Below are positions 77-13,276 of a stretch of DNA of 13,537 nucleotides, in pieces. Positions within the stretch are counted from its first letter, which is position 1; each line of letters starts with the position of its first letter. The notes beneath the pieces are model-generated. The model saw nothing but the letters and a program-made list of their open reading frames with translations. It was not told the DNA's origin and made no database searches. The stretch spans positions 1 through 13,537 of IMG/VR virus record IMGVR_UViG_3300012662_000073, one strand, 5' to 3'. The stretch is from a virus. The translations under genes were made by a program, and so were the position numbers.

Positions 77-988
77 CTACGCTATATCCTTTCCACCAAG
101 TACAATCTGATCAGAGAATGCATACTGAACACCAGCATTAGCCTCAATAACAAGTCGAAATTCCCTGTTGTCTTTGGAATAGAAGAAATCAAACACCTCT
201 TCATCATTTACGAGGTCGCAACCGAAGAAAAGATCCTGTGGACGAGCAGCAAAAATATAATCAGTTCCGTTAAGACCGTTAACAGCAACTACTCGTACGT
301 TGGTTCCAGGGAAATAAATCTCTTCATCAACTCCCTTGCCATCATAGTGGAAAAGATTCTTCTCCATAAGCTCGTTAGTGAACTTACGATATACATCAGC
401 ACCTACGAAGATAACTGCACCATCAAGAACCTTCTCCGGAATAGCCATATAAACAGCCTTGATAGCACCATATGCACCAGCAGTTACATCTGCATCCACT
501 TTATTGATATTTGCATCAGCCTTAGCAATCTTGAGAAGACCATCGAAAATCTTGAGATTAGCATCACCAGAAGCAGTATCACCCTGCCAAATAGCGGTCT
601 CGATCTTTGCTTTTACATCAGCGATAACAGCGTTAACGAAATCCTCTTCAAACGGAAGTGTCTTCTGTCCAGCTGCTACGCGAACTGCGTACTGCGTCCA
701 ATATTTAAGCATTGTTTTATCGCAGTAAGCCATATTTACTTTGAAATTACCAGTCTTAATCGTACGCTGCGAAAGAGTCTGTGAGCCCTTTTCGTCCCAA
801 CCACAAGCAAGTCCATCACCGAACTCTACATCAGTTGAAAGAAGATTAATAACTGCATCTGTTTTAATATCTGTCTGGAGATTGAACATCGAAGCACTCT
901 TTGCTCCAAGAACAGCCTCCTTAATAAGGGGAAGTCTACGCTCTTCTACATAAGCCGGAAGAGTTGTCATAACTGGTGAATTTGCCAT
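77..988 (-). CDS. Major capsid protein (HK97-fold type), 303 aa
   Basis: Intact ORF from ATG 988 to TAG 79..77. It sits directly after the protease and scaffold-like genes. By eye, length and sequence character are typical of HK97-like capsid proteins. It has three Trp codons, all TGG, and no TGA. Confidence 0.75.
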   Translation of the reverse strand: MANSPVMTTLPAYVEERRLPLIKEAVLGAKSASMFNLQTDIKTDAVINLLSTDVEFGDGLACGWDEKGSQTLSQRTIKTGNFKVNMAYCDKTMLKYWTQYAVRVAAGQKTLPFEEDFVNAVIADVKAKIETAIWQGDTASGDANLKIFDGLLKIAKADANINKVDADVTAGAYGAIKAVYMAIPEKVLDGAVIFVGADVYRKFTNELMEKNLFHYDGKGVDEEIYFPGTNVRVVAVNGLNGTDYIFAARPQDLFFGCDLVNDEEVFDFFYSKDNREFRLVIEANAGVQYAFSDQIVLGGKDIA

Positions 989-990
989 TT

Positions 991-1455
991 CTAAATATAT
1001 TTTTTACAATTTTTAAAAACTGCTCTCAAATCGTCTTTTGGAGCAATAACATCTTCTATTTCTTCTGTAGCTGGTTTAGCAACAGATTTATCTTCAATTG
1101 CATTTATACGCTCAGTAATTGCCTTTTCAAAAGCATCAATACGAGCATACAATTCATTTACCTCTTTACGAAGATTTTCTATATCCTCGGTTTCTTTTTC
1201 TGGAATAACCTCTTCAAGAGTCTCTTTCTCTTCTGGTTCAACAATCTTACCTTCCTTTACTTGGATTGGAGTTTCGTTAACAATATATTCACCATCTGGA
1301 ATATCTGCATATTCTCCATTCTCAGTAACGAGATATACTTCAGAACCAATTTCAAGACTCTCAAAAGCAATCTTTGTTCCGTCTTCAAGAACAACCTCAG
1401 TAAGGTCAGAAAGCATCTTTGCAAGAGCAATTCTTAAATCATTCAATTTACTCAT
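991..1455 (-). CDS. Scaffolding-like acidic coiled-coil protein, 154 aa
   Basis: Intact ORF ending in TAG 993..991, 2 nt before the capsid ATG. It is rich in E/K/I with a heptad-like central region (EEKETLEEVIPEKETEDIENLRKEVNELYARIDAFEKAI). Its position between protease and capsid is the classical scaffold slot. Confidence 0.5.
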   Translation of the reverse strand: MSKLNDLRIALAKMLSDLTEVVLEDGTKIAFESLEIGSEVYLVTENGEYADIPDGEYIVNETPIQVKEGKIVEPEEKETLEEVIPEKETEDIENLRKEVNELYARIDAFEKAITERINAIEDKSVAKPATEEIEDVIAPKDDLRAVFKNCKKYI

Positions 1456-1967
1456 TATCGAGTTGTTTTAATTTTGTTAAACAAATCATCTCTTTTTATC
1501 TCTGCTTCTATAGAGAAGCCAGAGTAGTTTTCATTTATTATTCTGTTATACAGATCTGGATTTTCAACCAAGTAAGTGATAAACAGAGTACCATCTGGTA
1601 GATCCTCAAATCCATTTAAGATATTGCGAGTAGAATCCTTGATATATACTTCTATTGGTTTAATTCCGGTAAGTAGTTGACCATTGTGCATAATCGAAAC
1701 ATTTTTTGTGTTTCCAGATGTAATTAAGTCACTAGCAAACCGTTTAATTGCTTCTTTACTAAAGACTAAGTAATATTCTCCGGATTCATCTCGTCTATAT
1801 ATCTTCATATCTGGAATAAGAATCGGTCCAGTTATTGATCTCTGATTGTTATCTGATTGAAATCGAATCTGTTTATTAAACAGAATAAAATCGCTTTCGA
1901 TTGCTGGTCTATCTACAAGAGATATACAATCTATGAAAGCATTGTTAACGTAATAAACAGGAATCAT
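1455..1967 (-). CDS. Prohead protease, XkdF-like (Peptidase_S78_2-type), 170 aa
   Basis: I prefer ATG 1967 (MIPVYY...), which lies 1 nt after the upstream TAA. The track's GTG start at 1985 would overlap the upstream gene. The pattern ISLVDRPAIESDF ... ITGPILIPDMKIYRRDESGEY ... SGFSIEAEI resembles the XkdF family as I remember it. The TAA stop overlaps the next ATG (TAATG). Confidence 0.6.
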   Translation of the reverse strand: MIPVYYVNNAFIDCISLVDRPAIESDFILFNKQIRFQSDNNQRSITGPILIPDMKIYRRDESGEYYLVFSKEAIKRFASDLITSGNTKNVSIMHNGQLLTGIKPIEVYIKDSTRNILNGFEDLPDGTLFITYLVENPDLYNRIINENYSGFSIEAEIKRDDLFNKIKTTR

Positions 1968-1968
1968 A

Positions 1969-2649
1969 TTAAAAATTATAAACACACTTTATCTTGTTCT
2001 GGGAATGCAATTTAAGTCTACCAGATAAGACAGAGTTATAAAACCTATACTGATATGGAGTAGGAACGTTCTCAGTAACCCAAGTAGCAAGACGGCCAAT
2101 CCTACCAGCCAGGTATGAGAGGGGTGTAATTACGGTTTTTCTACGAGTTTTATAAAAGCAATTCTTCATAAGCAATTGGATTTTCTTTAAGAACTTACGA
2201 AGGCGGTTTTTTCCAACTCCCACATATTCAGCAAGTTGCGCCCAACTCATTTTAATATCAAGAGTGTCGGAAAATGCAGCACATCTCGTTTTGAGAATAA
2301 TCCCCTTTTCAATGGAAGTGTAATTTGCCTTAAGAAAAGATCTGTTTACGAGATAATACGACTTGTAATTAAGTGAAATCACATAATGCTGTTTTCCCAT
2401 CTTACCGCGCCTGTAAGAGAGATTAATTAAACCAACTTTCGCAATTGCCTTTACTAGGTCGGATACTCTGTCCAAATCTTTTATTTTCAAACACTTAGCA
2501 AGATAAGCTCGGTTTACTTGCTGGTGATCTGTAATCATCTTTACGATATATAAATAAGTAGTTGCTTGTACATCAGTAAGCAATCTAACTCTATAATCGA
2601 TTCTGAAATAATTTTTCATAATCATTGTTATTTTAATAATCATTATCAT
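1969..2649 (-). CDS. Winged-helix DNA-binding protein, paralog A (replication-initiator-like or operon regulator)
   Basis: Intact ORF ending in TAA 1971..1969. Possible ATG starts are 2649, 2643, 2625 and 2619. Comparison with paralog B (MNKNYF...) favours 2619 or 2625 (M(IM)KNYF...). It shares the layout KNYF - wHTH - basic beta hairpin (GKQHYVISLNYKSYYLV vs GRKYVDYIIVKPKYYVV) - second HTH with the 12477..13169 product. There are no TGA codons. Confidence 0.55.
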   Translation of the reverse strand: MIMIIKITMIMKNYFRIDYRVRLLTDVQATTYLYIVKMITDHQQVNRAYLAKCLKIKDLDRVSDLVKAIAKVGLINLSYRRGKMGKQHYVISLNYKSYYLVNRSFLKANYTSIEKGIILKTRCAAFSDTLDIKMSWAQLAEYVGVGKNRLRKFLKKIQLLMKNCFYKTRRKTVITPLSYLAGRIGRLATWVTENVPTPYQYRFYNSVLSGRLKLHSQNKIKCVYNF

Positions 2650-2667: not shown

Positions 2668-2700
2668 AAGAAAACCTCCCAGACCGAATTATCCGGGAGG
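2668..2700 (-). terminator. Rho-independent terminator-like hairpin upstream of paralog A
   Basis: The minus strand reads CCTCCCGGATAATTCGGTCTGGGAGG followed by TTTTCTT. The stem is 6 perfect bp (2675..2680 / 2695..2700), extendable with G-U pairs. Confidence 0.5.
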
Positions 2701-2769: not shown

Positions 2770-2789
2770 TTTTTGGGCATTTTTGGGCC
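2770..2789. repeat. Tandem 10-bp repeat TTTTTGGGC(N) x2 (minus strand GCCCAAAAA)
   Basis: The copies at 2770..2778 and 2780..2788 are identical. They are followed in the direction of transcription by TATATATA and a hairpin, mirroring the layout upstream of paralog B. Confidence 0.6.
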
Positions 2790-2800
2790 TAATTTTGAAT

Positions 2801-2875
2801 AATTTTTTTAATTTTTTTCGTAAGTGATTGATAATCATCGAGAAAAAATTTAAAATTTTTTTTAAAATTTTTTTT
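2801..2875. promoter_or_regulatory. AT-only phased T-tract block with a central inverted repeat (candidate DNA-unwinding or bent element)
   Basis: AATTTTTTT occurs x2 (2801..2818) and AAAATTTTTTTT x2 (2852..2875). These flank TTTTTTTCG-taagTGATTgatAATCAt-CGAGAAAAAA. Confidence 0.45.
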
Positions 2876-2986
2876 CGGAGACTCAACAATTCCTTTACCT
2901 GGCTTGTAGGATCATCCAAAATAAGACAATCAAAAGATTCTTTTTCGGAGCCAGCGGGAGAGTTTCTTTATAGTACATTGTAAATA

Positions 2987-3030: not shown

Positions 3031-4230
3031 TTAACCTATTCTGTATGTTCCGAGGTTTTTTTTGATTGCATAACAAGTAATTGCGAGTGACATACAAGCA
3101 TCATCTGGACAATTCTTTCCTGCGTATGTTATAAGATTTCCTTTATAAACGGCTTGAAATGCTTGTAGTTCTCTAATCAACTCTTTGTTGTTAATTATTT
3201 TTATTCGTTTTTGTTCAAAAAGTATTTGTAATCACTCTACAATATCTCTTTTACTCGAATTGGTTGTAGTTCATTCTGTTATCGGAATTGTAGTGTATTT
3301 CTTTAAGAGATCGATGTATGCCTTTCCCATCGAATTGCCTTCGCAAACTACTTTATTCGGTTTGTATTTATTAACGATCTCAGCAATTCATTTAACTCGT
3401 TCAACGGGCTCTAGCTGGTTGTTATATTGGAAATCAATCATTTCGTAATCTCTATTCATAACTGTTACAGCAGTATAATCTCCACCAACAGACGAACTAC
3501 AATCCACTCCTATTACTAGCCCGTTTTTGTGGGTAGGTTCTCCAACTGCATCTAGTATATTATTAAAAAGCAATCCTTGTCCTGCTGGAGCGAATTGTCC
3601 TAGTATTTCAGTCATATAACGCATTGGAGAATATTGTTCTTTTAAACGATCTAATTCTTCAGGCGAATAAACGAGATTCACATATTTCGATCAATCATAA
3701 ACAATTGTGTTTTTATTGTTATAAAGATCTCAAATATATCCCTCTGCCGTTAACGGGCTGGAAATATAAATAGTCAACGCTTTCTTCACCCTACGTAAAG
3801 GGAGTGCAGTCATAATAAAATCCGGGTCGAGAAAACAACATTCATCTAGCACAAGAAAGTTTTCCGCAGTTAATCCTCGTAAGGAGTCTTTTTGTTGTCC
3901 CGATCTAAAAAAGATTCTGGAACCATTTATGAAACATAATTCAAGTGTTTGGTAATTCACTTGCTTTATAAGGTTTGCTCCATTTAACATTTTAACAACA
4001 TCCTGCATTTGTGATCGAGATTGTTGTAACGTAGGTGCAATATAAACCCCATCTCCAATTAATTCAAGAGATGATTTAATCATCAAAAGAGCGATTGTAG
4101 AGCTTTTAAAAAATTGTCTCGGCGCAATTATGAGTATATCTTTATTTTGGTTTCGGAAACCCATCCGAGTAACATCAGACAGCAACTCTTTTTGCCAAAC
4201 TGTCAGATTGTTTGGAAGTACTATTTTCAT
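3031..4230 (-). CDS. terL: Terminase large subunit, 399 aa, with five in-frame TGA codons
   Basis: The gene runs from ATG 4230 to TAA 3033..3031. It has a Walker A-like motif IIAPRQFFKSST, Walker B LVLDE, coupling motif ISSP and nuclease-domain acidic motifs (VIGVDCSS..GGDYTAVTV; CPDDACMSLAI). Track fragments 3730..4230 and 3388..3681, plus the untracked 3031..3387, are in one frame. They are joined by TGA at 3730, 3691, 3388, 3271 and 3232. Confidence 0.8.
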
Positions 4231-4232
4231 AT

Positions 4233-4667
4233 TTATTCAATCTTTATTTCGCTCTGTTTTAAATTATATAAACGCTCCCAAGTAATTCGAGAGTTAATTA
4301 AGTGATCTTTATTTCATTGTCCTACTCCAATACAGCCTTGTGTTTCCGAAACTCAGTTCAGTGGGTGACATAACACACCTTCCCAGCAAGGCACATCAAG
4401 TAAACGAGGCATCTTTCCATCACAAAAATCTTTGTAGTATTTAATCTTACTGTATTTGGGAGATTTTATTTCATACGATATTTTATATGTCCCAGTAGGA
4501 ATTGCTGTCTTAGAAGGGATTTTAACCCGCTTTATAAGGCTTGTAGGATCATCTTTTTTAAGGCCTCTATCAGTTGGTTCAAGAGTATCACAAAAGTATT
4601 TGTTGTCGATATATAATTCTCCCTGCGTATACTCTGGTTGTTTGTTTGTTCTTTTTAAAATTAGCAT
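4233..4667 (-). CDS. DUF5675-like protein (possible cell-wall-active enzyme), 144 aa, with two in-frame TGA codons
   Basis: The gene runs from ATG 4667 to TAA 4235..4233. The pattern TQGELYIDNKYFCDTLEP ... AIPTGTYKI ... MPRLLDVPCWEGVLCHPLN-TGA-VSETQGCIGVGQ matches my memory of DUF5675 (T.G.L..C.TLE .. IP.G.Y .. VP...iH.GN...T.GCI.vG). The TGA codons are at 4353 and 4314. Confidence 0.5.
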
Positions 4668-4670
4668 ATT

Positions 4671-4713
4671 AAAAAGTCTGCCAGGTTGTCATACTACTGT
4701 CAGAATGGCAGAC
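4671..4713 (-). terminator. Terminator-like hairpin 3 nt upstream of the DUF5675 start codon
   Basis: The minus strand reads GTCTGCCA-(22 nt)-TGGCAGAC TTTTT AAT ATG. The stem is 8 perfect bp (4676..4683 / 4706..4713). Confidence 0.45.
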
Positions 4714-5163
4714 ATTATTTCTGGCATAGTATTTGTATATATAATATTCGGATCGAGATACACCTCGATAGGATAGTGGGAAAGGGAAAGCCCTCCGATG
4801 TAGTAGAAACTAAAGTATAGCCTGCATTGAGCCTCAGTTGTGTTAATTGATTTTAAGATGAATTAATCTTAAATAGCACCTGCCAAAAAGACCATCACAT
4901 ATAACAAGGGAACTTGCAAAGTGTATTTCAGAGTGAAGCAAGTAGTGGTACTCAGCCACTCCTAAGTGAAGATAAACTCAGCGATCTTACTCGGTAGTCA
5001 TTCCAGAAGACAACGTTGAAGGGAACAAAATTCTTTGTAACGGGTTTATAACCGATTGATTTAATCGTTACTTGGTTTTGTTTTAAAAGACTTTCTCACT
5101 GCCCACCCCCTATATTAAGAGTGATTGGTAATCGAAACTTGCTTTAATAACAAAAGCGAGTAA
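4714..5163. ncRNA. Candidate structured noncoding RNA or long cis-regulatory leader (class not recognised)
   Basis: TAA/TAG stops are dense in all six frames even when TGA is read as sense. Local G/C-rich patches are unusual for this genome (GGGAAAGGGAAAGCCCTCC 4778..4796; GCCCACCCCC 5101..5110). There are several local helices: 4752..4757/4764..4769, 4852..4859/4866..4873, 4912..4917/4938..4943, 4944..4948/4956..4960 and 5053..5057/5063..5067. I could not fold a tRNA. Confidence 0.25.
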
Positions 5164-5196
5164 GGGGAAACTATTCCCTATATGAAACGTTTCCCC
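5146..5196 (-). terminator. Terminator-like hairpin after the tape-measure-like gene
   Basis: The minus strand reads GGGGAAAC-(17 nt)-GTTTCCCC with 8 perfect bp (5164..5171 / 5189..5196), starting 10 nt after the TAG. The following tract TTACTCGCTTTTGTTATT is only moderately T-rich. Confidence 0.4.
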
Positions 5197-5206
5197 ATAG
5201 ACTACT

Positions 5207-8095
5207 CTAGAAAGTTGCATTATCGTTAACTACTTTTACTCGGTTTTGAGCATCAGTAATATCTCTTTCAGTAACATAAACTTTAATTGGTTTGTTAACT
5301 TCATCTATCTCTTTATCTCCGAGTAAGTTACGAGTATATTCTATATTCGGTTGAGTAACAGCAGGCGGAGTAACAGTAGATGCAGATACACTACTTGATG
5401 AACTGAATTGCGTTCTTTGAATTTGTACAACATTTGCAATACCAGCCGCAATTGCAGCAGCAGCCGCAGCAGCACCTAAAAACGGTCCAACATACGGTAT
5501 TGATGCCATTGATTGATAAGAACTATTCGCAGCAGCATAAGTATCCATAATTGCTTGTGTAGTTGCAGCTACCTTATAAGTAGTAAATGCTTTTTTACGT
5601 TGTTCTTCACTCAGTTTTTCGTTTTGTGATTCAGTTTGTGCTATACTAGCCAGACTACTCATTACATTGCTTGCTACACTAAGAGTTGATTGTAATGCTA
5701 GTCGTTTCTTTGCTTGTACAGCATCATATGCTTTTGCGTTATCTTGTTCGTTTTTAATTGCTGCATCACTAAGAGCTATTTCATTCTCTTTAAGAGTACG
5801 CTCTATCTCCAGACGTTGATCAGCAGTTAATTGACTATTCGATAATTGTTCCGTTAAAAGTTTGTTTTCGGCATCTATACGCTGCTTTGTAAGAGCATAA
5901 AGATCATTGTTATACTTGATTGTGTCTGCATATTGTTTTTGGACATCCTCTTTTGATTGATATGTAAATACTTCATTACGATCGAATCCTGCTCCAAATG
6001 CTCTACTAAACTTTTGTCCGTATCTAGTGTTATATGCTTGCTCTTGTGGTTGTCTCAGATTGCTTGTATCACTCAGTTGTCTTATTCGAGCTAGTTCTTC
6101 CTTAAATTGATCATATCTGCTCTTTTGATTCTCTTTTTCATCTTGCTTGTTCTTATCCAGATATTTATTCAATATCTCGTTCTTCTTAACAAGATATATT
6201 TCATCGATTCGAGTACTATCTACACCATATCGTTCAGCCAGAGAAAGCATCTCTTGATACTGTTCATCTAATGCGTTAATTGCATTCTCTTTCTCAGTAT
6301 AAAAGAGTTTTTCAGATTCTTTTAAAAAGCTATTCAGTGCTTCGAGATCTTTATCAATCTCAGTTTTCGTAGTACTACCAGATCCCTCTTTGTCTTTACT
6401 AGCCCAGAAAGGTTTGTATTTCTTTCGGAGTTCCTCTGTTTTGTTCGTTATGTTACTAACAAACTCTGTATATGATTCCTCGTTCTCTTTAAGTGCTTTA
6501 TCTACTTGTGCTTTATTCGCTACTCGTATTGTCTCTACGCTTGTTCCAGTAGCGTATTGTGCTGCATTTTGTAATGCTTTTTGGAGATCTTCTGCACCCT
6601 GTCTTTCGATTTCTAATTGATTGTTGATATACTCAGTAGTCTTCTCAGAAATCTTCTGTCTATATGCATCTATTTGTGCTCTTGCTATAATTGCATTTTT
6701 ATAATCCTCTGTATTATTAACAAAAGCATCTTCAGCATCTTTAACGTCATTTATCTTTAATCCAGTTTTCTCGATTTGTTCGGAGTACTCTTTTAAAAAC
6801 TCCTTTTTATCACCAAACTGATTGTAAACGTTCAAGAGTTCATTAAACGCAGCAAGACTATCTCCAGCTAATTCAGATGTAGTTTTATTAATTGCTTTGT
6901 TAAATTCCTGTTGTGCTTTACTTGCTTTGTAAGTAGCAGCAATTCATTCAAACAATTTAAAAACTGCTGCTGTTATCACTGTTATTAAGGCTGTCCAACC
7001 CACTGTTGAAATTACACTCTTTGTAGCAGACCAAGCTTTACCAAGTTTTGATTGTGCAAACTCAGCCTTTTGTAAGGCAGATTCATATTGCTGTAATTCC
7101 TTTACTTGGCCCGCTTCTTGGTATTGTAAGTCTTTTAAGACTTCTTTTAGCCCTGTGGTTCCGTTCGCGTACTTTTGTTGTACTTGTATTGCTTTATTGT
7201 AGTCCAATCCCATTCCTTGGAGAGCCGCTTTTGCATTTATTCTCGCATCAACAAGAGATTGTCCGTACTGCTCTTGTAATTCCTTTACTTGGTCGTAGTA
7301 TATCGACAATGTCCTATCTGATTCTGAGACTTCTTGGATCTGTTGTTTTACAACTTCAATCGACTTCTGTGTATTAGCAATTAAGTTCTTTTGTCGGCTA
7401 ATTACCTTTGTTTGGTTTGTAATATATTTATCCCACTGTTCATTAACCGGTACAATCGTTTTTTGTTGCTGTTGTAATGCTTGTGTAGTCTGTGCAATTT
7501 CTTTTGATCCACCAGAAACACTTGTAGATATGTTCACATCTCCTATTCCAGCAAGATCTTTAATCGGTTGTATATCCAAGCTATTTAAGGCTTGCGCAGA
7601 TTCTGTTATTCGTCTATTAAACGGACTCAGATTCTCAAACAAGTCGAGTACGCCATCTTTTAAACGATCGAATCATCCTTTTATTGTTGGTAAACTATTT
7701 GCAAGTCCTTCCAATCCACCAATTCCTTGTACAACTGCAATTCCTCCTTGGAGTTTTACAAGCACCTTACTAAGATCATCACCACTCTTACCAAGTAAGG
7801 CAAGTAGTCCATTTAATGCACCGAATCCACCTGCCAATCCAGATCCGATTCGAGAAAGATTCGCTAATTGATCAGCCAGCTTTTGGGTATTCTGCTGGCT
7901 AATCTTATTAACGTTATTTAATTGTGCTTCGTATTGATTTAATCTCTCTATTGTTTTTGTATATTCAGCACTAGTCTTATCTAGGCTTGCTAAATAATCT
8001 TTTAAAGAGTTAATCTCTTTTTTAAGCTGTCTAACGTTTGTAACCGCTTTACCGGTTTGTACGTCAACTATTTTGGTAATTACTGTTTCTGCCAT
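5207..8095 (-). CDS. Tape-measure-like or internal ejection-like protein, 962 aa, with two in-frame TGA codons
   Basis: The gene runs from ATG 8095 to TAG 5209..5207. Track fragments 7673..8095, 6944..7642 and 5207..6835 share one frame and are joined by TGA at 7673 and 6944. The TTG 'starts' of the two downstream fragments are internal Leu codons. The protein has long Q/E/K-rich coiled-coil stretches plus Gly/Ala-rich hydrophobic segments (GSGLAGGFGALNGLLALLG; VGPFLGAAAAAAAIAAGIANVV), as in tape-measure proteins. Confidence 0.6.
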
Positions 8096-11000
8096 TATAA
8101 ACTAATTGTTATATCATCTGTTCCAGCAGTTATCTGGAAACGTCTAATTACTGTTCCTCGTCTATTTATCAACTGTATTTCAAATGCTTCATTTCTCGGT
8201 CCGTATATCAATCAAGATTTATTAAAATCATCAAACGAGTAAGTGTATCTATCATCCTCACTAACTACACTCATTCACATTGTATCAAGAGTAAGTAAGT
8301 TTTCAATCACTTTTATATTTCTTGCTTTACTTGGGTTCGGGAGCGTCTCCATTCTAAACGATTGTGTGTATTTATATAACCTGCTAGTAAACGTCCAATA
8401 TGCTACTTCACTATGTCAAGTATCATTTATGCTTGTTTGTGCAGTAATCTCTGTAGTACCAGCATCTCCACTAGTTATATCTGGTTCAAGATATTGTGAA
8501 TCACTTTCTACCGTTCAACTATCAGCAGCAAGGAGAGTCCCTTCATATTGTCCACTATCATATCTGGTTGTTAACGGACTCAGAGTAAATCCATATGTAT
8601 AATCTGGTTGTCCATTTGTATATGCATTTATATCATTTACTCGTATAAACTCAAATTGTTGTGGTTCTTTACTTTCCGGAGAGTAATCGTTTGCCTTATT
8701 TAAGATATAAACTGTATTATCAATCAAATAAAACGAGTTCAAATCAATTTCATCAAGTAATGCTCAACAAGTAAGCTTTCTTGTGTTCTCGTTAAAGAGA
8801 TCATTATAATATTCTTTATTAAACCTGTTATAAATGCATTTATCGTCTGTGTATTCAACTCCTGGTATAAATCATTCTTTTGGTCATCCTAAATCAAGAC
8901 TATCTGTTACTTGGTTGTCATTAATCAAATAACTAGAGTAACTCGGTATTTTATCAAGCTTGTATGCAATTCGTTCACCAGCCTTGTTATATTCGCTTGT
9001 AGTGTACAAAAAGCATCTTTCTTCATTCAGATCAAACATTTCTTGTGTATCATCAGATAACCAGTATATCTGTGGAGTATCGAAATATCCGTTATAAAAG
9101 ACTAAGCTTGCTTTAAAATCACTAGTGGACTTACTTTTATCAAAGAAACAAGGCTTGTAATTGCTATCCTGTCCAGCGAGTATTCCTCAATCACTAATCT
9201 TATTTATATATTCCGAACCATATAAAGTCTGTGTTGTGGAGTCATCTTTTGTCTTAAAAAGAGTTCATTCACAATTATCAACCAAGAAACAAGGTTGTTC
9301 AGTAGATCCCTTAAAATAACTTCGATAATATTTACTGGAGTCTCTTGCCGTTATTGCTTGTTGGAAAACATTATCACTCAGTAATTCATTTATATCACTG
9401 TTAAATTCATATCCAGTGTCAATTCGTTGTTGTCCGTATTCTATATTATATCTATTCTTATATTTGCTTGCGTAATATGTTTCCGGAGTCTCCAGTTTCA
9501 TTAAATATCATTTCTTATCAAATAACAAGGGTTCAATCGTAATCTCTTTCGAGTAGTCTATTTTGCCTGTTATATCAATAATATTTCTTTTAAAGAAACT
9601 ATTTCTCGATTTTATGTTAATCTCATTATTAACTCGATCTATCTCAAAATATAATCCAAAGAGTTTCGCATAACTAATCAAATAATCAGCAGCAGAGTCT
9701 TCTGTAGTAAGCAATTTCTTTTTGGTAATCAATGTGTTTGTTCCAACCGTATAATCAGACTTGATTGTTATCGAGCTTGTTTGTGCAGTAAAGTTCATTT
9801 CACCAGCATATCCAGAACCAATCTCAATTTCATCTTTTGTAGGATAAAGTTTTGTAACCCTTTCACTATAAAAAACGGAGTACCAACTTGCTTTCACAAC
9901 AATTTTAACACTGTCAGCAGGTTTCACCAAATCAGTAATTGTAAGATGTATCGTTTTATCAAATTTAAAAGTATCTCCAGACTTTATAAAAGCACCATCC
10001 ATTAAAGTACTGTTTGCATCTGTTTCAGGAGTATATCCCATTCAGTTATTCGGTTGTGGTGTCTTGCTGTCACTCAGTCTGTTTGTAATATTATAAATAT
10101 TCGAGTAGCCAACAATTTTATTATTATCATCAAGTAACTGTACTTGTAATGCAATTGAACCACCAGCAGTACTAACTATATTACCTCTTTCAAAAGTAGC
10201 AGCCATATAAAGAGTATTATCCGAGATTTCATCATCTGGTTGGAAATTAATGTCAATCGGTATATCAATATCAATTGTACTATCATTCGAGTAACCAGAT
10301 AAATCAATTGTCTCAGAACCATCCTTTTTAAAAGGAAATGTGTTATCCGGTAGAGAACTATTTATATTTCCGAGATCACTTGTTATTTCGCTTGTAGATT
10401 CATTTCCAGATTCACTTTCTTGATCAGCACCAAGTAACGGTAGAGTAATATAAGATTGTTCCCAATAAGGATTTTTTGGACTAAATCAGCTTGGATCGAG
10501 ATTCACTTGATATCCTGTATTGTCTTTATTTAAAATCGCCTTAAAAAGCTCTTTAAGCCTCAATGCAGGTCTTTGTTTGTAAGATCGTAAATCTCGTATT
10601 TCCCATTCCGTATAAGATTCATTCAGTTTGGCTAATCCATATCCGTTATATAATTTATATTCTCCATTCACACTAGGGAAACTAGTTCCAGATTGATTCA
10701 CTAAACAAGAACTTGTATCAAACTCTTCATATAATCCGTTATATGCAGGTATAAACTTTAATAAACTATGTAAACCATCTTCAGATCCATTAAAAGAGTC
10801 ATAAACCCATTCTTTATTTATGCTAAACCTAAAATAAGTATCATCATCACTTGTATAAGTAATATCAGCAAGTGTTCTTGTGGAGCCATCTTCTTTATAT
10901 CTAAGATTGTAAAAGAAATCACCAAGCAAACCATATAAGTTAATATTATATGCTCGCTTGGTAATGCTAGTCAGTTGCATATATCCTCTTTCAAATAAAC

Positions 11001-11250
11001 AACCGTTTCTAAGTATAACGAAATCAACTCTCTTTCTTGGATTGAAAGTCTGTTCTGTTTGTTGTCTATCTAATCTGTATATATCATCAAAAATCTTGTT
11101 GTTGTTATCTGTTCTCGGTATTTCTATGCTAACCGAGTAAGGATTCTTTATTGCTGTTGGATTGTATATCTCCAATTGGCTATAAGTCATTCCGAGAGAT
11201 ATATCATCATTCAGATCAACTTTCTTGTTATTTATATATAATTCTACCAT
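8095..11250 (-). CDS. Large tail/baseplate protein (host-recognition candidate), 1051 aa, with twelve in-frame TGA codons
   Basis: The gene runs from ATG 11250 to TAA 8097..8095, which overlaps the next ATG as TAATG. Hand translation shows a single open frame through TGA at 10486, 10042, 9508, 9265, 9187, 8884, 8872, 8764, 8515, 8416, 8275 and 8212. This joins track fragments 10486..11250, 9508..10041, 9265..9501 and 8515..8742 with the untracked stretches between them. The composition is beta-rich (N/Y/T/S/D), typical of fibre and baseplate proteins. Confidence 0.6.
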
Positions 11251-12068
11251 CGAAATTGTGTTCTAGCGGATTTCAAAGTAAGTTCAAGCCTACTAAATCT
11301 CTTTTTAAAATCATAACTAGTTGTATCAATTAAAACTGGCTCAATAATGTTTTTATCTAGACTGTGTAAGTAAACTTTTGGACTATTTAACAAGTGATGT
11401 ATATTCTCCTTGTTAATTGTATAACCAGTAACAACGTCATAACTGTTTGTAAACTCAGTTAAGTACCTCCTTGTAAGAGTATCATCCAAGTAATCATAAT
11501 TCGTTTTGTTCTCAGATTTATTTGCTTTCACAAGTAAACTATCTCAACCACCAAACTCGTTCAAGTAATATATTGCGTAATCACCACAACTCATTTTGTA
11601 TTTAAACTCTTGAAACGTACTAGTAAACGAAATATTTCCAGTAGTCTTTTGTGAATAAACGTTTGCTTCATTACTAGCAGGTAACGCAGTACCATTTATT
11701 TTCGGATTCACATCTTTCAAGTAAGAGAAAATCAAATATTGTCTTGCATCATATAAATCATCAATCGGAGCAGAAATATATGTTGCATCACTATCTGTAT
11801 ATTCTTGATTGTTTGTTATATAATCATCTATTCCAGTTGATGTTTCAAAATATCTTTTCCAGTTAACTAAGCCTTGTGTTTGTTTCGGGAGATCTCCAGA
11901 GTCTATATATTTCTTTATAAGATCGTTTATTTTAACGCTTATCTTACCGGTGTTTGGATTTCTCCAAGCTTTTCCAGTAAAAACTGTTTCATCATCTATT
12001 TTAATTCAGTAGTCTGTGTATTCTTTATTAACTACTTGTTCATCTATTATTGGATAACCTATATTCAT
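11244..12068 (-). CDS. Tail-associated structural protein, 274 aa, with two in-frame TGA codons
   Basis: The gene runs from ATG 12068 to TAG 11246..11244, overlapping the next ATG by 7 nt (ATGGTAG). The TGA codons are at 12006 (..TDY-TGA-IKIDD..) and 11544 (..YYLNEFGG-TGA-DSLLV..). It joins track fragments 11544..11735 and 11244..11531. Confidence 0.55.
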
Positions 12069-12484
12069 ATCGAGTCTATCAATTTATTTGTTTGTATATC
12101 TATTTCTTTATCAAGGTTCGGTTCTATTATATCTAACGACCTTTCTAAGATGTGTTTGCCAGGTATGCCTTTCTTAGCAATGCTCTTTGCAATTGCTCAA
12201 CTAAGATTTCTTTCTAAGGGCAAGTGTTTGTTTTTTATCCAATTCTCTATAAGAGCAATCGGAGGTTGTTTTCCAGGTAATCGACCATTCTCTATATATT
12301 CGTAATAATCAGCAATTGATAATCAAACCGATCAATTATCCGATTGCTCTTGTGTAGTAACACTAAGACTGTTTGAAAGATTTCCAGTTGTGTTAATATT
12401 CTCTTTATTTAACAATTCTCTGTAAGAGTTTATAAATTCTTCTCCAGAGTGTTCTAAAACTGTATCTAAATCAAGTCTATTCAT
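12059..12484 (-). CDS. Hypothetical virion or assembly protein, 141 aa, with four in-frame TGA codons
   Basis: The gene runs from ATG 12484, overlapping the upstream wHTH stop by 8 nt (ATGAATAG), to TAG 12061..12059. The TGA codons are at 12332, 12323, 12197 and 12065. It is invisible in the standard-code track because the first TGA comes after 50 codons. The product reads MNRLDLDTVLEHSGEEFINSYRELL...ADYYEYIENGRLPGKQPPIALIENWIKNKHLPL... Confidence 0.5.
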
Positions 12485-13169
12485 CCTTTTGTTTTTTTAA
12501 TAATCCGGAAATCATTTTGTCATATATCTCGTTTGCTTTCGGGATAATATAAAGTTGATTTTCATAAAACCAACTTGCTTGTTTATAAAGCTTGCTAGTA
12601 GGATCACCCGTAGTAAGGATCATATTCAATTCATTCATTCTATTATCCGAAAGATGCGTTGTAGCGAAAATTGGGAAATACTCTCCAGATAAAGCATAGC
12701 CGTCATCAACCACTGTTATAATGCCCGATTCAATTAAACGCTTCTTGTAAGAGAAATAGGCAGTTCTTCCTATTTGGAGATGCTTTATAATATCGTTATC
12801 CGAGTACTTTATTTGGTTTGTTCCATTAATTCTTAATTCGGCTAGTTTAATTGCCAATACTCCCAATTCTTTGTATTGTAGGATAGCGTTCATACAAACT
12901 ACATAATACTTCGGTTTGACAATTATATAGTCCACATATTTTCTTCCGTTTACAAAGCGGTACTCCTTTCTTATATAGCCATCTTTTTGAAATTGATTTG
13001 TCATTCTAGTAACGACATCTGCTTTCTTTATTCCGGTAAGTTCCATTATCTTTCCTCGGCTTATGTGGCTGACTTTTGAGTCGCTATTCATCATAATTAG
13101 CGCAAGCACATAATCCTCTTTTAAGAGGTAACATCTCTTGGTTGGCATTACAAAATAATTTTTATTCAT
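12477..13169 (-). CDS. Winged-helix DNA-binding protein, paralog B (replication-initiator-like or operon regulator), 230 aa
   Basis: Intact ORF from ATG 13169 to TAG 12479..12477. The N-terminal pattern KNYFVMPTKRCYLLKEDYVLALIMM..ISRGKIMELTGIKKADVVTRMTNQFQKDGYI resembles RepA_N / DnaD-type wHTH initiators from memory. It has a second HTH-like segment (DIIKHLQIGRTAYFSYKKRLIESGII), no TGA and one TGG. Confidence 0.6.
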   Translation of the reverse strand: MNKNYFVMPTKRCYLLKEDYVLALIMMNSDSKVSHISRGKIMELTGIKKADVVTRMTNQFQKDGYIRKEYRFVNGRKYVDYIIVKPKYYVVCMNAILQYKELGVLAIKLAELRINGTNQIKYSDNDIIKHLQIGRTAYFSYKKRLIESGIITVVDDGYALSGEYFPIFATTHLSDNRMNELNMILTTGDPTSKLYKQASWFYENQLYIIPKANEIYDKMISGLLKKQKDE

Positions 13170-13234: not shown

Positions 13235-13276
13235 ACCCCTTTTTCGGTACCACCCTAACCCCTTTTTCGGTACCAC
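13235..13276. repeat. 19-bp direct repeat ACCCCTTTTTCGGTACCAC x2 (period 23 bp), iteron- or operator-like
   Basis: The copies at 13235..13253 and 13258..13276 are identical. They lie between a terminator and the wHTH paralog B gene. Confidence 0.65.

What the first reader, a model, noticed from the sequence alone, without database searches (positions are those of the whole stretch)
77..2649. Recoding is modular: the head operon and both wHTH genes avoid TGA entirely
By my hand count, the six recoded genes (3031..12484, about 2970 codons) use TGA 27 times and TGG 17 times. The wHTH-A / protease / scaffold / capsid operon (77..2649) plus wHTH-B (12477..13169) total about 1080 codons and use TGG 6 times and TGA 0 times. 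If TGA were used at the same ratio, six of six TGG has a naive probability of about 0.003. Those genes are therefore translatable under the standard code, while the tail, tape-measure-like, lysis-like and terminase genes are not. This resembles published observations that recoded stop codons concentrate in late and lytic genes of recoded gut phages. Here, however, the capsid module falls on the standard-compatible side. Possible explanations are avoidance of a suppressor-limited codon in the most highly expressed proteins, a staged translation switch, or recent acquisition of the head module from a standard-code phage.
Basis: partly seen in the sequence, partly recalled or inferred. Interest (0 to 1): 0.7.

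Follow-up and report, generated by a model that had tools for sequence, protein, structure and literature searches.

The report
Recoded phage spares its most abundant proteins
In a small gut phage that reads the stop codon TGA as tryptophan, the genes for the two most abundant virion proteins (capsid and tail tube) almost never use TGA, which suggests the borrowed codon is costly to translate rather than marking an early/late expression switch.

Summary
The window alone is weak evidence. Protease and scaffold have no Trp codons, wHTH-B has one, and the selection-corrected p is about 0.04.

A 26.6-kb composite genome of the same strain and about 50 related genomes make part of the pattern solid. 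A 17-codon TGG-only run spans wHTH-A to the portal 5' end (scan p=0.0004). Across relatives the capsid has 1 TGA and 150 TGG. The next gene, a tail-tube-fold protein outside the window, has 1 and 95. Tail genes use TGA at about 50%. wHTH-A homologues have 0 of 14.

The pattern is a gradient, not a clean partition. Near-identical strains carry TGA at capsid W64, protease homologues carry some TGA, and a wHTH-B paralogue has 2 TGA and 0 TGG. Putative early genes also use TGA.

The capsid has an AT-rich four-fold composition like the rest of the genome, plus codon-specific bias. This indicates translational selection, not foreign origin. No tRNA was found in about 75 loci.

Best reading: TGA is purged from the most heavily translated genes. 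This is a new variant of a known kind, of moderate interest.

The parts
77..988 (-). Major capsid protein gene (303 aa), TGA 0 and TGG 3
   Evidence: PHROG 11320 at 5e-21 and PHROG 1623 (virion structural protein) at 3e-10. 3118 homologues were found. W64, W97 and W134 are invariant. Recoded relatives have 1 TGA and 150 TGG. K/E/Q G-ending fraction is 0.73 and four-fold G+C is 0.14.
991..1455 (-). Scaffold-like gene (154 aa) with no Trp codons, so uninformative in this strain
   Evidence: Counts are. Its position between protease and capsid suggests a scaffold role. Relatives have 1 TGA and 20 TGG.
1455..1967 (-). Head maturation protease, XkdF/S78_2 type (170 aa from the ATG at 1967), with no Trp codons
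   Evidence: Pfam PF14550 at 3e-9. Homologues in the ~70%-identity clade have 8 TGA and 52 TGG, so the family does not avoid TGA completely.
1969..2649 (-). wHTH-A (216-226 aa), a rare winged-helix protein that heads the TGA-free block; TGA 0 and TGG 2
   Evidence: Only 4 homologues exist among 5.8 billion proteins. Three homologues at 72-75% identity each have 0 TGA and 4 TGG. The AF2 model has an N-terminal winged helix with pLDDT 83-90. Fold matches are weak, all E>=0.01, and mostly MarR/DtxR/TFIIIC winged-helix proteins.
2675..2700 (-). Terminator-like hairpin (10 pairs followed by TTTTCTT), 25 nt upstream of wHTH-A, at the end of the DUF5675-TerL unit
   Evidence: Consensus scan and the sequence itself.
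3031..4230 (-). Terminase large subunit (399 aa), TGA 5 and TGG 1
   Evidence: PHROG 2 at 4e-32 and Terminase_6C at 2.6e-12.
4233..4727 (-). DUF5675 protein (164 aa), TGA 3 and TGG 2
   Evidence: PF18925 at 2e-21.
5207..8095 (-). Tape-measure-like protein (962 aa), TGA 2 and TGG 4
   Evidence: Tape-measure PHROGs at about 1e-8. At the conserved Trp column in the family, TGA frequency is 0.69, against 0.71 for A-ending codons at K/E/Q columns.
8095..11250 (-). Large tail protein G4 (1051 aa), TGA 12 and TGG 6
   Evidence: Counts are. The family total is 210 TGA and 223 TGG. At 8 conserved Trp columns the TGA frequency is 0.65, equal to the A/G baseline of 0.70.
11244..12068 (-). G3 (274 aa), TGA 2 and TGG 3
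   Evidence: Counts are. The family total is 84 TGA and 181 TGG.
12059..12484 (-). G2 (141 aa), TGA 4 and TGG 1; its codon-140 TGA overlaps the G3 ATG as ATGA
   Evidence: Counts and coordinates are. There is a weak PHROG 5 (neck/tail completion) match.
12477..13169 (-). wHTH-B (230 aa), Rep/DnaD-like, TGA 0 and TGG 1, so statistically uninformative
   Evidence: PHROG 186 and PHROG 270. Paralogues in the same genome have 0/0 (240 aa) and 2 TGA with 0 TGG (239 aa).
13235..13274 (-). Two 17-nt direct repeats, GGTACCGAAAAAGGGGT, upstream of wHTH-B; these may be iterons or an operator
   Evidence: Read directly from the sequence.

Best explanation
The window is half of a ~26.6-kb tailed phage genome that reads TGA as tryptophan and carries no detectable suppressor tRNA. 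Under AT-biased mutation, TGG drifts to TGA wherever the cost is tolerable. In low-copy genes (large tail protein, tape measure), TGA is used as often as any other A-ending synonymous codon. Terminase, DUF5675, the spanin-like gene and the homing endonucleases are also TGA-rich. In the genes translated most heavily (major capsid and tail tube, less so scaffold, protease and portal), selection for fast or complete translation keeps Trp as TGG. TGG is read by the ordinary host tRNA-Trp, whereas TGA depends on a limiting or slower decoding route. The result is a TGA-poor head and tail-tube block and a graded, abundance-linked use of TGA, not an early/late code switch.

Shown: the codon counts, the gradient, the codon-bias signature, TGA = Trp, and the absence of a tRNA.

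Inferred: that the gradient reflects expression level, that TGA decoding is costlier than TGG decoding, and that the host is a standard-code Bacteroidota.
For: TGA = Trp:
- Columns holding TGA align mostly with W (314), then Y (201) and F (127); G has only 31.

Family counts in recoded genomes:
- Capsid 1 TGA / 150 TGG; tube-like 175-aa gene 1/95; scaffold 1/20; protease 8/52; portal 15/100.
- G3-like 84/181; tape measure 104/121; G4 210/223.
- GIY-YIG endonuclease 49/41; HNH endonuclease 41/0.

Lineage and genome-level tests:
- Head against tail, stratified by lineage: odds ratio 0.034, p=4e-6, same direction in all 5 lineages.
- Whole-genome scan in the window's own strain: a TGG-only run of 17, p=0.0004.
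- The longest TGG-only run includes capsid plus tube in 13 of 15 relatives.

Within-gene control:
- At conserved Trp columns of the capsid, TGA frequency is 0.007, against 0.35 for A-ending codons at conserved K/E/Q columns, of which 29 of 38 are polymorphic (permutation p=0.012).
- In G4 and the tape measure, Trp columns (0.65-0.69) equal K/E/Q columns (0.70).

Codon bias:
- The capsid has G+C 0.12 at four-fold sites, like every other gene. It shifts A to T there and prefers AAG, GAG, CAG, AAC, CAC and TTC, but not TTG or AGG. This is a translational-selection signature.
- TGA fraction correlates negatively with this bias (rho -0.61, p=0.008).

Tail tube:
- The 175-aa protein has a tail-tube fold. 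PDB neighbours include the SPP1, Milano, 7-7-1 and Pam3 tubes. BFVD matches reach TM 0.6-0.72, including 'major tail protein'.

Independent hint:
- Two TAG-recoded relatives have no TAG among 10-12 Gln codons of the capsid, while their tail genes have up to 8.

Precedent:
- Reassigned stop codons are depleted in highly expressed genes of Blastocrithidia (PMC12153298) and of a ciliate (PMC10553269).
Against: - Expression was never measured. Abundance is inferred from the roles of the proteins and from codon bias.
- Part of the capsid signal is simply its general G-ending bias. 13 of 38 K/E/Q columns are also fixed on G, so the TGA-specific excess is only p=0.012.
- The 38 capsid sequences form only 6 clusters at 95% nucleotide identity, so the raw counts overstate independence.
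- Some TGA-free genes in the block show little codon bias. The 439-aa gene has 0 TGA and 7 TGG with K/E/Q G-ending fraction 0.35. The 150-aa gene has a G-ending fraction of 0.12. An operon-level or other factor may therefore add to the effect.
- In-frame TGA shows no avoidance of the strong-termination +4 T (0.25, against 0.20 after TGG). In tail genes TGA looks neutral. Both argue that TGA decoding is efficient, which weakens the 'costly codon' premise.
- L040 and L061 carry TGA at capsid W64, and L040's contig name reports about 72x coverage, so a capsid TGA is viable.
Confidence: 0.6

Rival explanations
1. Staged or conditional translation. The head block is kept readable in the standard code so that it can be made before, or independently of, the switch to TGA reading. 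TGA-containing genes wait for the switch.
For: - The block is contiguous in the window's strain and starts right after a terminator-like hairpin.
- Published models propose that recoding times late and lysis genes (Borges preprint).
- The spanin-like gene (3 TGA, 0 TGG), DUF5675 and the homing endonucleases are TGA-rich, as in that work.
Against: - Putative early and replication genes carry TGA: Rep-like 239-aa gene 2/0, 62-aa gene 2/0, PDDEXK 1/2, 105-aa gene 3/3, 129-aa gene 3/0. TGA must therefore be readable from the start of infection.
- No phage-encoded tRNA, release factor or aminoacyl-tRNA synthetase was found that could execute a switch.
- Head and tail proteins are needed at the same time.
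- In relatives only capsid plus tube are constant; the flanks vary.
- L040 has a TGA-rich endonuclease inside the block.
Confidence: 0.12
2. The host itself uses code 4 (Mycoplasma-like). On this reading there is no recoding by the phage, and the pattern is ordinary codon-usage bias of a code-4 system.
For: - No suppressor tRNA was found in any of about 75 loci.
- TGA occurs in early genes.
- TGA is neutral in tail genes and shows no +4 context signature.
- The DUF285/PARCEL-repeat protein belongs to a family common in Mycoplasma.
- Cook et al. note that many predicted code-4 phages simply share their host's code.
Against: - A 145-aa protein has a lipobox signal peptide plus a C-terminal transmembrane helix. 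This is u-spanin-like and implies an outer membrane.
- Shine-Dalgarno motifs occur at background level (2 of 35 genes, 2.2 expected), and upstream regions are A-rich, as in Bacteroidota.
- A standard-code relative of the head module is integrated in a 646-kb Bacteroides contig.
- Tube-fold neighbours include Nonlabens and Polaribacter phages.
- The G2 ATGA junction looks like a former TGA stop.
- Family members are seen on hundreds of contigs. From memory, several source samples are human stool, where code-4 bacteria are rare.
Confidence: 0.15
3. The head module was acquired from, or keeps being exchanged with, standard-code relatives (prophages or satellites). It has therefore not yet accumulated TGA.
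For: - Standard-code and TAG-recoded relatives share this capsid lineage.
- L060 has an otherwise near-identical genome with a swapped capsid allele at 65% identity.
- Capsid overall GC is 0.42, against 0.31-0.36 for the other window genes.
Against: - The capsid's higher GC comes from amino-acid content and specific codons. Its four-fold sites have G+C 0.12-0.14, the same as the genome.
- Avoidance is shared by lineages down to 56% capsid nucleotide identity, in which most conserved K/E/Q sites have turned over.
- The swapped allele in L060 matches other TGA-recoded lineages such as L064.
- Standard-code relatives L067 and L069 use CAA 10 and CAG 0 in the capsid, whereas this clade uses CAG at about 80%.
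Confidence: 0.07
4. Sampling noise. Few Trp codons per gene and a partition chosen after the fact make TGA-free genes unsurprising.
For: - In the window the omnibus test gives p=0.10 and the selection-corrected test p=0.039.
- Two of the five genes have no Trp, and wHTH-B has one.
- Most single relatives have non-significant runs.
Against: - Genome scan p=0.0004.
- Stratified head-against-tail test p=4e-6.
- Capsid 1/150 and tube 1/95.
- wHTH-A homologues 0 of 14.
Confidence: 0.03

Closest known systems
Stop-codon-recoded ('alternatively coded') gut phages, code 4 and code 15 (Borges et al. 2021 preprint / 2022; Ivanova 2014; Yutin 2021; Peters 2022)
   Same: - In-frame TGA read as Trp.
- Uneven use across genes.
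- Lysis-type genes and homing endonucleases are TGA-rich.
- Close standard-code and TAG-recoded relatives exist.
- Probable Bacteroidota host.
- Lack of a detectable suppressor tRNA is common among such phages (only 15-35% of code-4 phages have one).
   Different: - Genome size is 26.6-33 kb, whereas the small clades named there (Garnet, Amethyst, Topaz) are TAG-recoded.
- TGA also occurs in putative early and replication genes.
- The major capsid and tail tube, which are late genes, are the ones spared. The published emphasis is that structural and lysis genes are the recoded ones, and capsid peptides of crAss-like phages were identified from code-15 predictions.
Depletion of reassigned stop codons in highly expressed genes of recoded eukaryotes (Blastocrithidia, PMC12153298; ciliate PL0344, PMC10553269)
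   Same: - Non-random, expression-linked avoidance of the reassigned codon.
- The avoidance is accompanied by general codon bias in the same genes.
   Different: - Those are cellular genomes with their own tRNAs and altered release factors, and expression was measured.
- Here the genome is a virus with no tRNA of its own, and expression is inferred.
Multiple-code block structure in phage genomes
   Same: A contiguous 6.2-kb stretch is fully readable in the standard code, next to stretches that are not.
   Different: - The standard-compatible block here is the head and tail-tube region, not the early region.
- In relatives the block shrinks to two genes. It behaves as gene-specific codon selection rather than as a code boundary.
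Phages of native code-4 hosts (Mycoplasma and Spiroplasma phages)
   Same: - TGA = Trp.
- No suppressor tRNA is needed.
- TGA occurs in all gene classes.
   Different: - A spanin-like lipoprotein is present.
- There is no Shine-Dalgarno signal.
- Relatives are linked to Bacteroides.
- tblastn of the capsid found no match to any deposited phage.

Membership tests
Code-4 recoded phage (TGA read as Trp) | In-frame TGA in essential genes, and coding density restored when TGA is sense | tested here: met
   Coverage by ORFs of at least 150 aa is 0.61 under the standard code and 0.89 with TGA as sense. TerL, tape measure, portal and tail genes are interrupted only by TGA.
Code-4 recoded phage (TGA read as Trp) | TGA positions align with Trp in homologues | tested here: met
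   W 314, Y 201, F 127, G 31 at columns that hold TGA. TGA and TGG interchange at conserved Trp columns.
Code-4 recoded phage (TGA read as Trp) | The host uses the standard code, so the phage differs from its host | tested here: inconclusive
   All evidence is indirect: a spanin-like protein, no Shine-Dalgarno signal, a distant relative integrated in Bacteroides, and tube-fold neighbours from Flavobacteriia phages. No direct host link was obtained.
Code-4 recoded phage (TGA read as Trp) | Phage-encoded code-change machinery (suppressor tRNA-UCA, RF1 or TrpRS) | tested here: not met
   ARAGORN found no tRNA in the window or in about 75 related loci that together cover whole genomes. Rfam found nothing. 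No release factor or aminoacyl-tRNA synthetase domain was seen. This feature is frequent in the family but not universal.
Early-standard / late-recoded expression model (Borges et al.) | Early and replication genes free of the recoded codon; structural and lysis genes carry it | tested here: not met
   Putative early genes carry TGA (Rep-like 239-aa gene 2/0, 62-aa gene 2/0, 105-aa gene 3/3, PDDEXK 1/2). Capsid, tube and scaffold are free of it. The lysis-type genes do fit the model (spanin-like 3/0, DUF5675 3/2).
Code-25 phages of Absconditabacteria and Gracilibacteria | TGA aligns with Gly | tested here: not met
   Gly accounts for only 31 of 1153 aligned residues at TGA columns.
Translational selection on highly expressed genes | Codon-specific bias that cannot be explained by base composition and is strongest in the most abundant proteins | tested here: met
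   Four-fold G+C is equal across genes (0.08-0.15). The capsid is enriched in T at four-fold sites and in AAG, GAG, CAG, AAC, CAC and TTC. The gradient runs capsid > tube > scaffold > others.
Translational selection on highly expressed genes | Bias scales with measured expression or protein abundance | not testable with these tools
   No transcriptome or proteome is available. Abundance is inferred from the virion roles of the proteins.

The most novel reading that the evidence does not exclude
This phage has no tRNA and depends on an imperfect, host-supplied way of reading TGA. Candidates are near-cognate tRNA-Trp(CCA), or a variant with a 4-bp anticodon stem such as the one reported to co-occur with the normal form in a Bacteroides species (PMC13092985). 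The number of TGA codons per gene would then act as a built-in translational attenuator that helps set virion stoichiometry: none in capsid and tube, one in the portal, 5 in the terminase and 12 in the large tail protein. It would also keep lysis genes and selfish endonucleases in check.
Probability: 0.12. Interest if true: 0.8.

Novelty: new variant of a known kind. Interest (0 to 1): 0.5.

Why it matters
Published work on recoded gut phages treats in-frame stop codons mainly as a timing device for late and lysis genes. In this family the two most abundant late proteins are exactly the ones kept free of TGA, and putative early genes use it.

If the abundance-linked reading is right, the reassigned codon carries a translational cost in phages, as it does in recoded eukaryotes. 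Per-gene TGA load would then be a readable proxy for how much of each protein the phage needs.

The finding also sharpens an open question: how does a 27-kb phage with no tRNA get TGA read as Trp, probably in a standard-code host?

There is a practical consequence too. Capsid and tube genes of such phages are found by standard-code gene callers, while terminase, portal and tail genes are fragmented. This biases marker-gene surveys.

Tried and rejected
- TAG or TAA recoding: neither restores ORFs.
- TGA = Gly (code 25): rejected by aligned residues.
- Nucleotide and capsid-protein searches of deposited phages: no match.
- Suppressor tRNA or other known RNA: ARAGORN was run on all loci and Rfam at E<=1 on the window. 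Nothing was found except a chance snoRNA match.
- The 479-nt non-coding gap at 4728-5206 as a structured RNA: z-score -0.82, and no similar DNA in phages.
- Bacteroidetes-type promoter pattern TTTG..TAnnTTTG: 0 matches against 0.87 expected. The sigma-70 scan was at background.
- wHTH-A and wHTH-B as paralogues: BLASTP E=18.
- Identity of the 175-aa gene by sequence against PDB: nothing significant. It was resolved only at fold level.
- DUF5675 against PDB and NCBIfam: nothing.
- More TAG-recoded relatives for an independent replicate: the new loci L067-L069 were standard code.
- Fetching the window's own contig through wHTH-B in viral and metagenome collections: nothing. This was solved using the 50-aa standard-code fragment of G2.
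- Readthrough-favouring +4 context at in-frame TGA: not seen.
- Foreign compositional origin of the capsid: rejected from four-fold sites.


Full report
**What is in the window.**
All eleven genes lie on the minus strand. Coding coverage is restored only when TGA is read as sense: 0.61 under the standard code and 0.89 with TGA as sense, while TAG or TAA as sense does not help.

In transcription order the genes are:
- wHTH-B, 12477-13169, Rep/DnaD-like
- G2, 12059-12484
- G3, 11244-12068
- G4, 8095-11250, a 1051-aa tail protein
- G5, 5207-8095, a tape-measure-like protein
- G6, 4233-4727, DUF5675
- G7, 3031-4230, the large terminase
- a 380-nt gap ending in a terminator-like hairpin at 2675-2700
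- wHTH-A, 1969-2649
- an XkdF-type protease, 1455-1967
- a scaffold-like gene, 991-1455
- the major capsid gene, 77-988

In alignments with relatives, TGA columns hold mainly W, then Y and F, and not G. The meaning is therefore Trp, which is code 4 and not code 25.

**Check of the observation.**
The five TGA-free genes contain 0 TGA and 6 TGG. The naive probability (0.003) and Fisher's test (0.0056) are reproduced.

Three cautions apply:
- Protease and scaffold have no Trp codon and wHTH-B has one, so only 3 genes and 6 codons carry the claim.
- The partition was chosen after looking. The chance that at least 6 Trp codons fall in TGA-free genes is 0.039, and an omnibus test gives 0.10.
- The TGA-free genes are also Trp-poor: 0.55 against 1.5 per 100 codons.

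The window alone is therefore suggestive, not conclusive.

**Whole genome of the same strain.**
Contigs nearly identical to the window (L060-L063, L103-L106; 26.5-28 kb) were recovered. A 26,599-bp composite was built from L103 and L062. It has 35 genes, 15 of which contain TGA, with 46 TGA and 54 TGG in all.

In genome order, the longest stretch of Trp codons that are all TGG is 17. It runs from wHTH-A through protease, scaffold, capsid, a 175-aa gene, a 439-aa gene, a 66-aa gene, a DUF285/PARCEL-repeat gene and a 150-aa gene, and ends at the first Trp of the portal. A scan permutation test, which is not biased by choosing the block, gives p=0.0004. The TGA-free block is therefore real. It extends about 3.6 kb beyond the left edge of the window.

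wHTH-B is not part of any significant run. A 239-aa paralogue of wHTH-B, about 2 kb upstream of the window, has 2 TGA and 0 TGG. Other putative early genes also use TGA: a 62-aa gene 2/0, a 105-aa gene 3/3, PDDEXK 1/2 and a 129-aa gene 3/0.

**Relatives.**
The capsid has 3118 homologues. I analysed 39 IMG/VR loci and about 20 closer contigs. Genomes with capsids at 65-97% identity are all TGA-recoded and measure roughly 24-33 kb. More distant relatives are standard-code, and two (L050, L054) are TAG-recoded.

Counts in the recoded genomes:

| Gene family | TGA | TGG |
|---|---|---|
| capsid | 1 | 150 |
| 175-aa gene after the capsid | 1 | 95 |
| scaffold | 1 | 20 |
| protease | 8 | 52 |
| portal | 15 | 100 |
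| DUF6712 | 11 | 54 |
| G3-like | 84 | 181 |
| tape measure | 104 | 121 |
| G4 | 210 | 223 |
| DUF285 family | 89 | 79 |
| GIY-YIG endonucleases | 49 | 41 |
| HNH endonucleases | 41 | 0 |

The 38 capsid genes form only 6 clusters at 95% nucleotide identity, so I took one genome per lineage. Head genes against tail genes then give an odds ratio of 0.034 and p=4e-6, in the same direction in all five lineages.

wHTH-A is rare, with only 4 homologues in 5.8 billion proteins. Its three diverged homologues each have 0 TGA and 4 TGG.

The longest TGG-only run contains capsid plus the 175-aa gene in 13 of 15 relatives. Its flanks vary, and most single genomes are not individually significant.

Avoidance is not absolute. 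L040 and L061 (capsid 97% identical) have TGA at W64. L040 also has a TGA-rich GIY-YIG endonuclease (6 TGA, 2 TGG) inserted between the capsid and the 175-aa gene.

**Is it TGA-specific or general codon bias?**
I used a within-gene control that shares the same phylogeny.
- In the capsid, conserved K/E/Q columns are mostly polymorphic for A/G (29 of 38). Their A-ending frequency is 0.35. The four conserved Trp columns have a TGA frequency of 0.007 (permutation p=0.012).
- In G4 and the tape measure, Trp columns (0.65-0.69) match K/E/Q columns (0.70). There, TGA behaves as a neutral synonymous variant.
- Portal, G3-like and the 372-aa family are intermediate.

The capsid also has a strong general bias. 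Its K/E/Q G-ending fraction is 0.60 in the family and 0.73 in the window, against 0.2-0.3 in tail genes. Across families, TGA fraction falls as this bias rises (rho -0.61, p=0.008).

Four-fold sites in the capsid are as AT-rich as in every other gene (G+C 0.12). They shift from A to T. The enriched codons are specific: AAG, GAG, CAG, AAC, CAC and TTC, but not TTG or AGG. This is the signature of translational selection. It is not the signature of a gene imported from a GC-richer, standard-code genome.

**What the spared genes are.**
The capsid assignment rests on PHROG and Pfam matches.

The 175-aa protein was modelled from a close homologue (mean pLDDT 65). In the PDB it matches tail-tube proteins from SPP1, Milano, 7-7-1, Pam3 and E217. 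In BFVD it matches with TM 0.6-0.72, including entries named major tail protein and proteins of Nonlabens and Polaribacter phages.

The two families that are essentially TGA-free are therefore the two most abundant virion components. Low-copy or enzymatic proteins (terminase 5/1, G4 12/6, spanin-like 3/0, endonucleases) are TGA-rich.

**Host and decoding.**
No tRNA was found in the window or in any of about 75 loci, which together cover complete genomes. Rfam found nothing.

Several indirect clues point to a diderm, probably Bacteroidota, standard-code host:
- Shine-Dalgarno motifs are at background level (2 of 35 genes), and upstream regions are A-rich.
- A 145-aa protein has a lipobox signal peptide and a C-terminal transmembrane helix, which is u-spanin-like.
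- A standard-code relative of the head module is integrated in a 646-kb Bacteroides contig, next to FtsK, LolA and TrxB.
- The G2/G3 junction is an ATGA overlap in which the TGA would have been the G2 stop codon.

None of this is a direct host link, and a native code-4 host is not excluded. I give that about 0.15.

In-frame TGA shows no avoidance of the strong-termination +4 T. Together with the neutrality of TGA in tail genes, this suggests decoding is efficient. How it is achieved is unknown. Lack of a detectable suppressor tRNA is common among predicted code-4 phages. [quoted passage not shown] That is a lead and has not been tested here.

**Explanations weighed.**
- Best: selection on heavily translated genes keeps Trp as TGG, while AT-biased drift fills weakly selected genes with TGA (confidence 0.6).
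- Staged switch (0.12): weakened by TGA in early genes, by the absence of switch machinery, and by the fact that only two genes are constant across relatives.
- Native code-4 host (0.15): this would keep the same selective logic but remove the 'recoding'.
- Acquisition from standard-code relatives (0.07): contradicted by four-fold composition and by persistence across deep divergence, although capsid alleles do recombine (L060).
- Pure noise (0.03): excluded for capsid, tube and wHTH-A. It remains the default for wHTH-B, protease and scaffold in this strain.

**Comparison with what is known.**
Uneven use of recoded stops in phages is established, with enrichment in lysis genes, some tail genes and an intron endonuclease (Borges preprint). 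This family agrees on those points. It differs in sparing the capsid and tube and in using TGA in early genes.

Depletion of reassigned stops in highly expressed genes is documented in Blastocrithidia and a ciliate. In the papers I searched and read, I did not find the same stated for phage capsid genes. Cook et al. do report that the major capsid protein is often identifiable without recoding.

I therefore rate this a new variant of a known kind, with moderate interest (0.5). The mechanism is plausible but rests on inferred expression.

Noticed in passing
L046 1-12100 (Bacteroides sp. UMGS1534, 646-kb contig): An integrated element of about 12 kb carries integrase, a DUF5906 primase-like gene, TerL, XkdF protease, scaffold, capsid (52% identity to the window) and portal. 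It has no tail genes and is followed directly by host genes: rRNA methyltransferase-like, FtsK, LolA and TrxB. It looks like a capsid-forming satellite or defective prophage in Bacteroidota.
   Followed up: partly
L050 (tRNA at 8781-8868) and L054: Members of the same capsid family are TAG-recoded, and L050 carries a tRNA with anticodon CTA. One head lineage therefore contains standard-code, TGA-recoded and TAG-recoded genomes. Their capsids have no TAG among 10-12 Gln codons.
   Followed up: partly
window 12065-12068 (minus strand): The G2/G3 junction reads ATGA. The TGA (G2 codon 140 of 141) overlaps the G3 start codon. Under the standard code G2 would stop there. Under code 4 it runs one codon further to TAG. 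This looks like a relic of a standard-code stop.
   Followed up: no
L040 10933-11652; L012 17057-17656; L009 16879-17544: GIY-YIG and HNH/NUMOD4 homing endonucleases are inserted at variable sites, including between the capsid and tube genes. They are the most TGA-rich families (49 TGA / 41 TGG, and 41 / 0).
   Followed up: partly
window 3031-4727, compared with L044 17270-18918 and L064 5064-6697: The DUF5675-TerL pair sits between the tape measure and the head genes in the window. It lies elsewhere on the opposite strand in L044, and its gene order is swapped in L064. wHTH-A is present only in some lineages. The region between tape measure and protease is a rearrangement hot spot.
   Followed up: no
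window 13235-13274 and 2780-2950 (minus strand): Two exact 17-nt direct repeats, GGTACCGAAAAAGGGGT, lie upstream of wHTH-B. CCGAAAAA motifs recur upstream of wHTH-A. These may be iterons or operators for the winged-helix proteins.
   Followed up: no
L103 1746-2468 (minus strand), 6616-7335, 9316-10008: One 26.6-kb genome holds three Rep-like winged-helix paralogues: wHTH-B, a 240-aa copy with no Trp, and a 239-aa copy with 2 TGA.
   Followed up: partly
L060 11665-12564: This genome is near-identical to the window's strain (wHTH-A and protease 100% identical), but its capsid gene is replaced by an allele at 65% identity. The recombination breakpoint is at the scaffold/capsid boundary.
   Followed up: no
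window 4728-5206: A 479-nt non-coding gap separates the tape-measure stop and DUF5675. It starts with a GGGGAAAC...GTTTCCCC hairpin. Overall it shows no significant structure (z=-0.82), no Rfam match and no similar DNA in phages.
   Followed up: yes
window 1969-2030 (C-terminus of wHTH-A): The last 20 residues of wHTH-A (..SGRLKLHSQNKIKCVYNF) are almost invariant among homologues that are otherwise 72-75% identical, and they abut the protease start. This may be a constrained overlap with translation-initiation signals.
   Followed up: no
L062 17085-17522: A 145-aa protein has a lipoprotein signal peptide (LLFASC) and a C-terminal transmembrane helix, which is u-spanin-like. All three of its Trp codons are TGA. 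It lies between the portal and the DUF6712 gene.
   Followed up: partly
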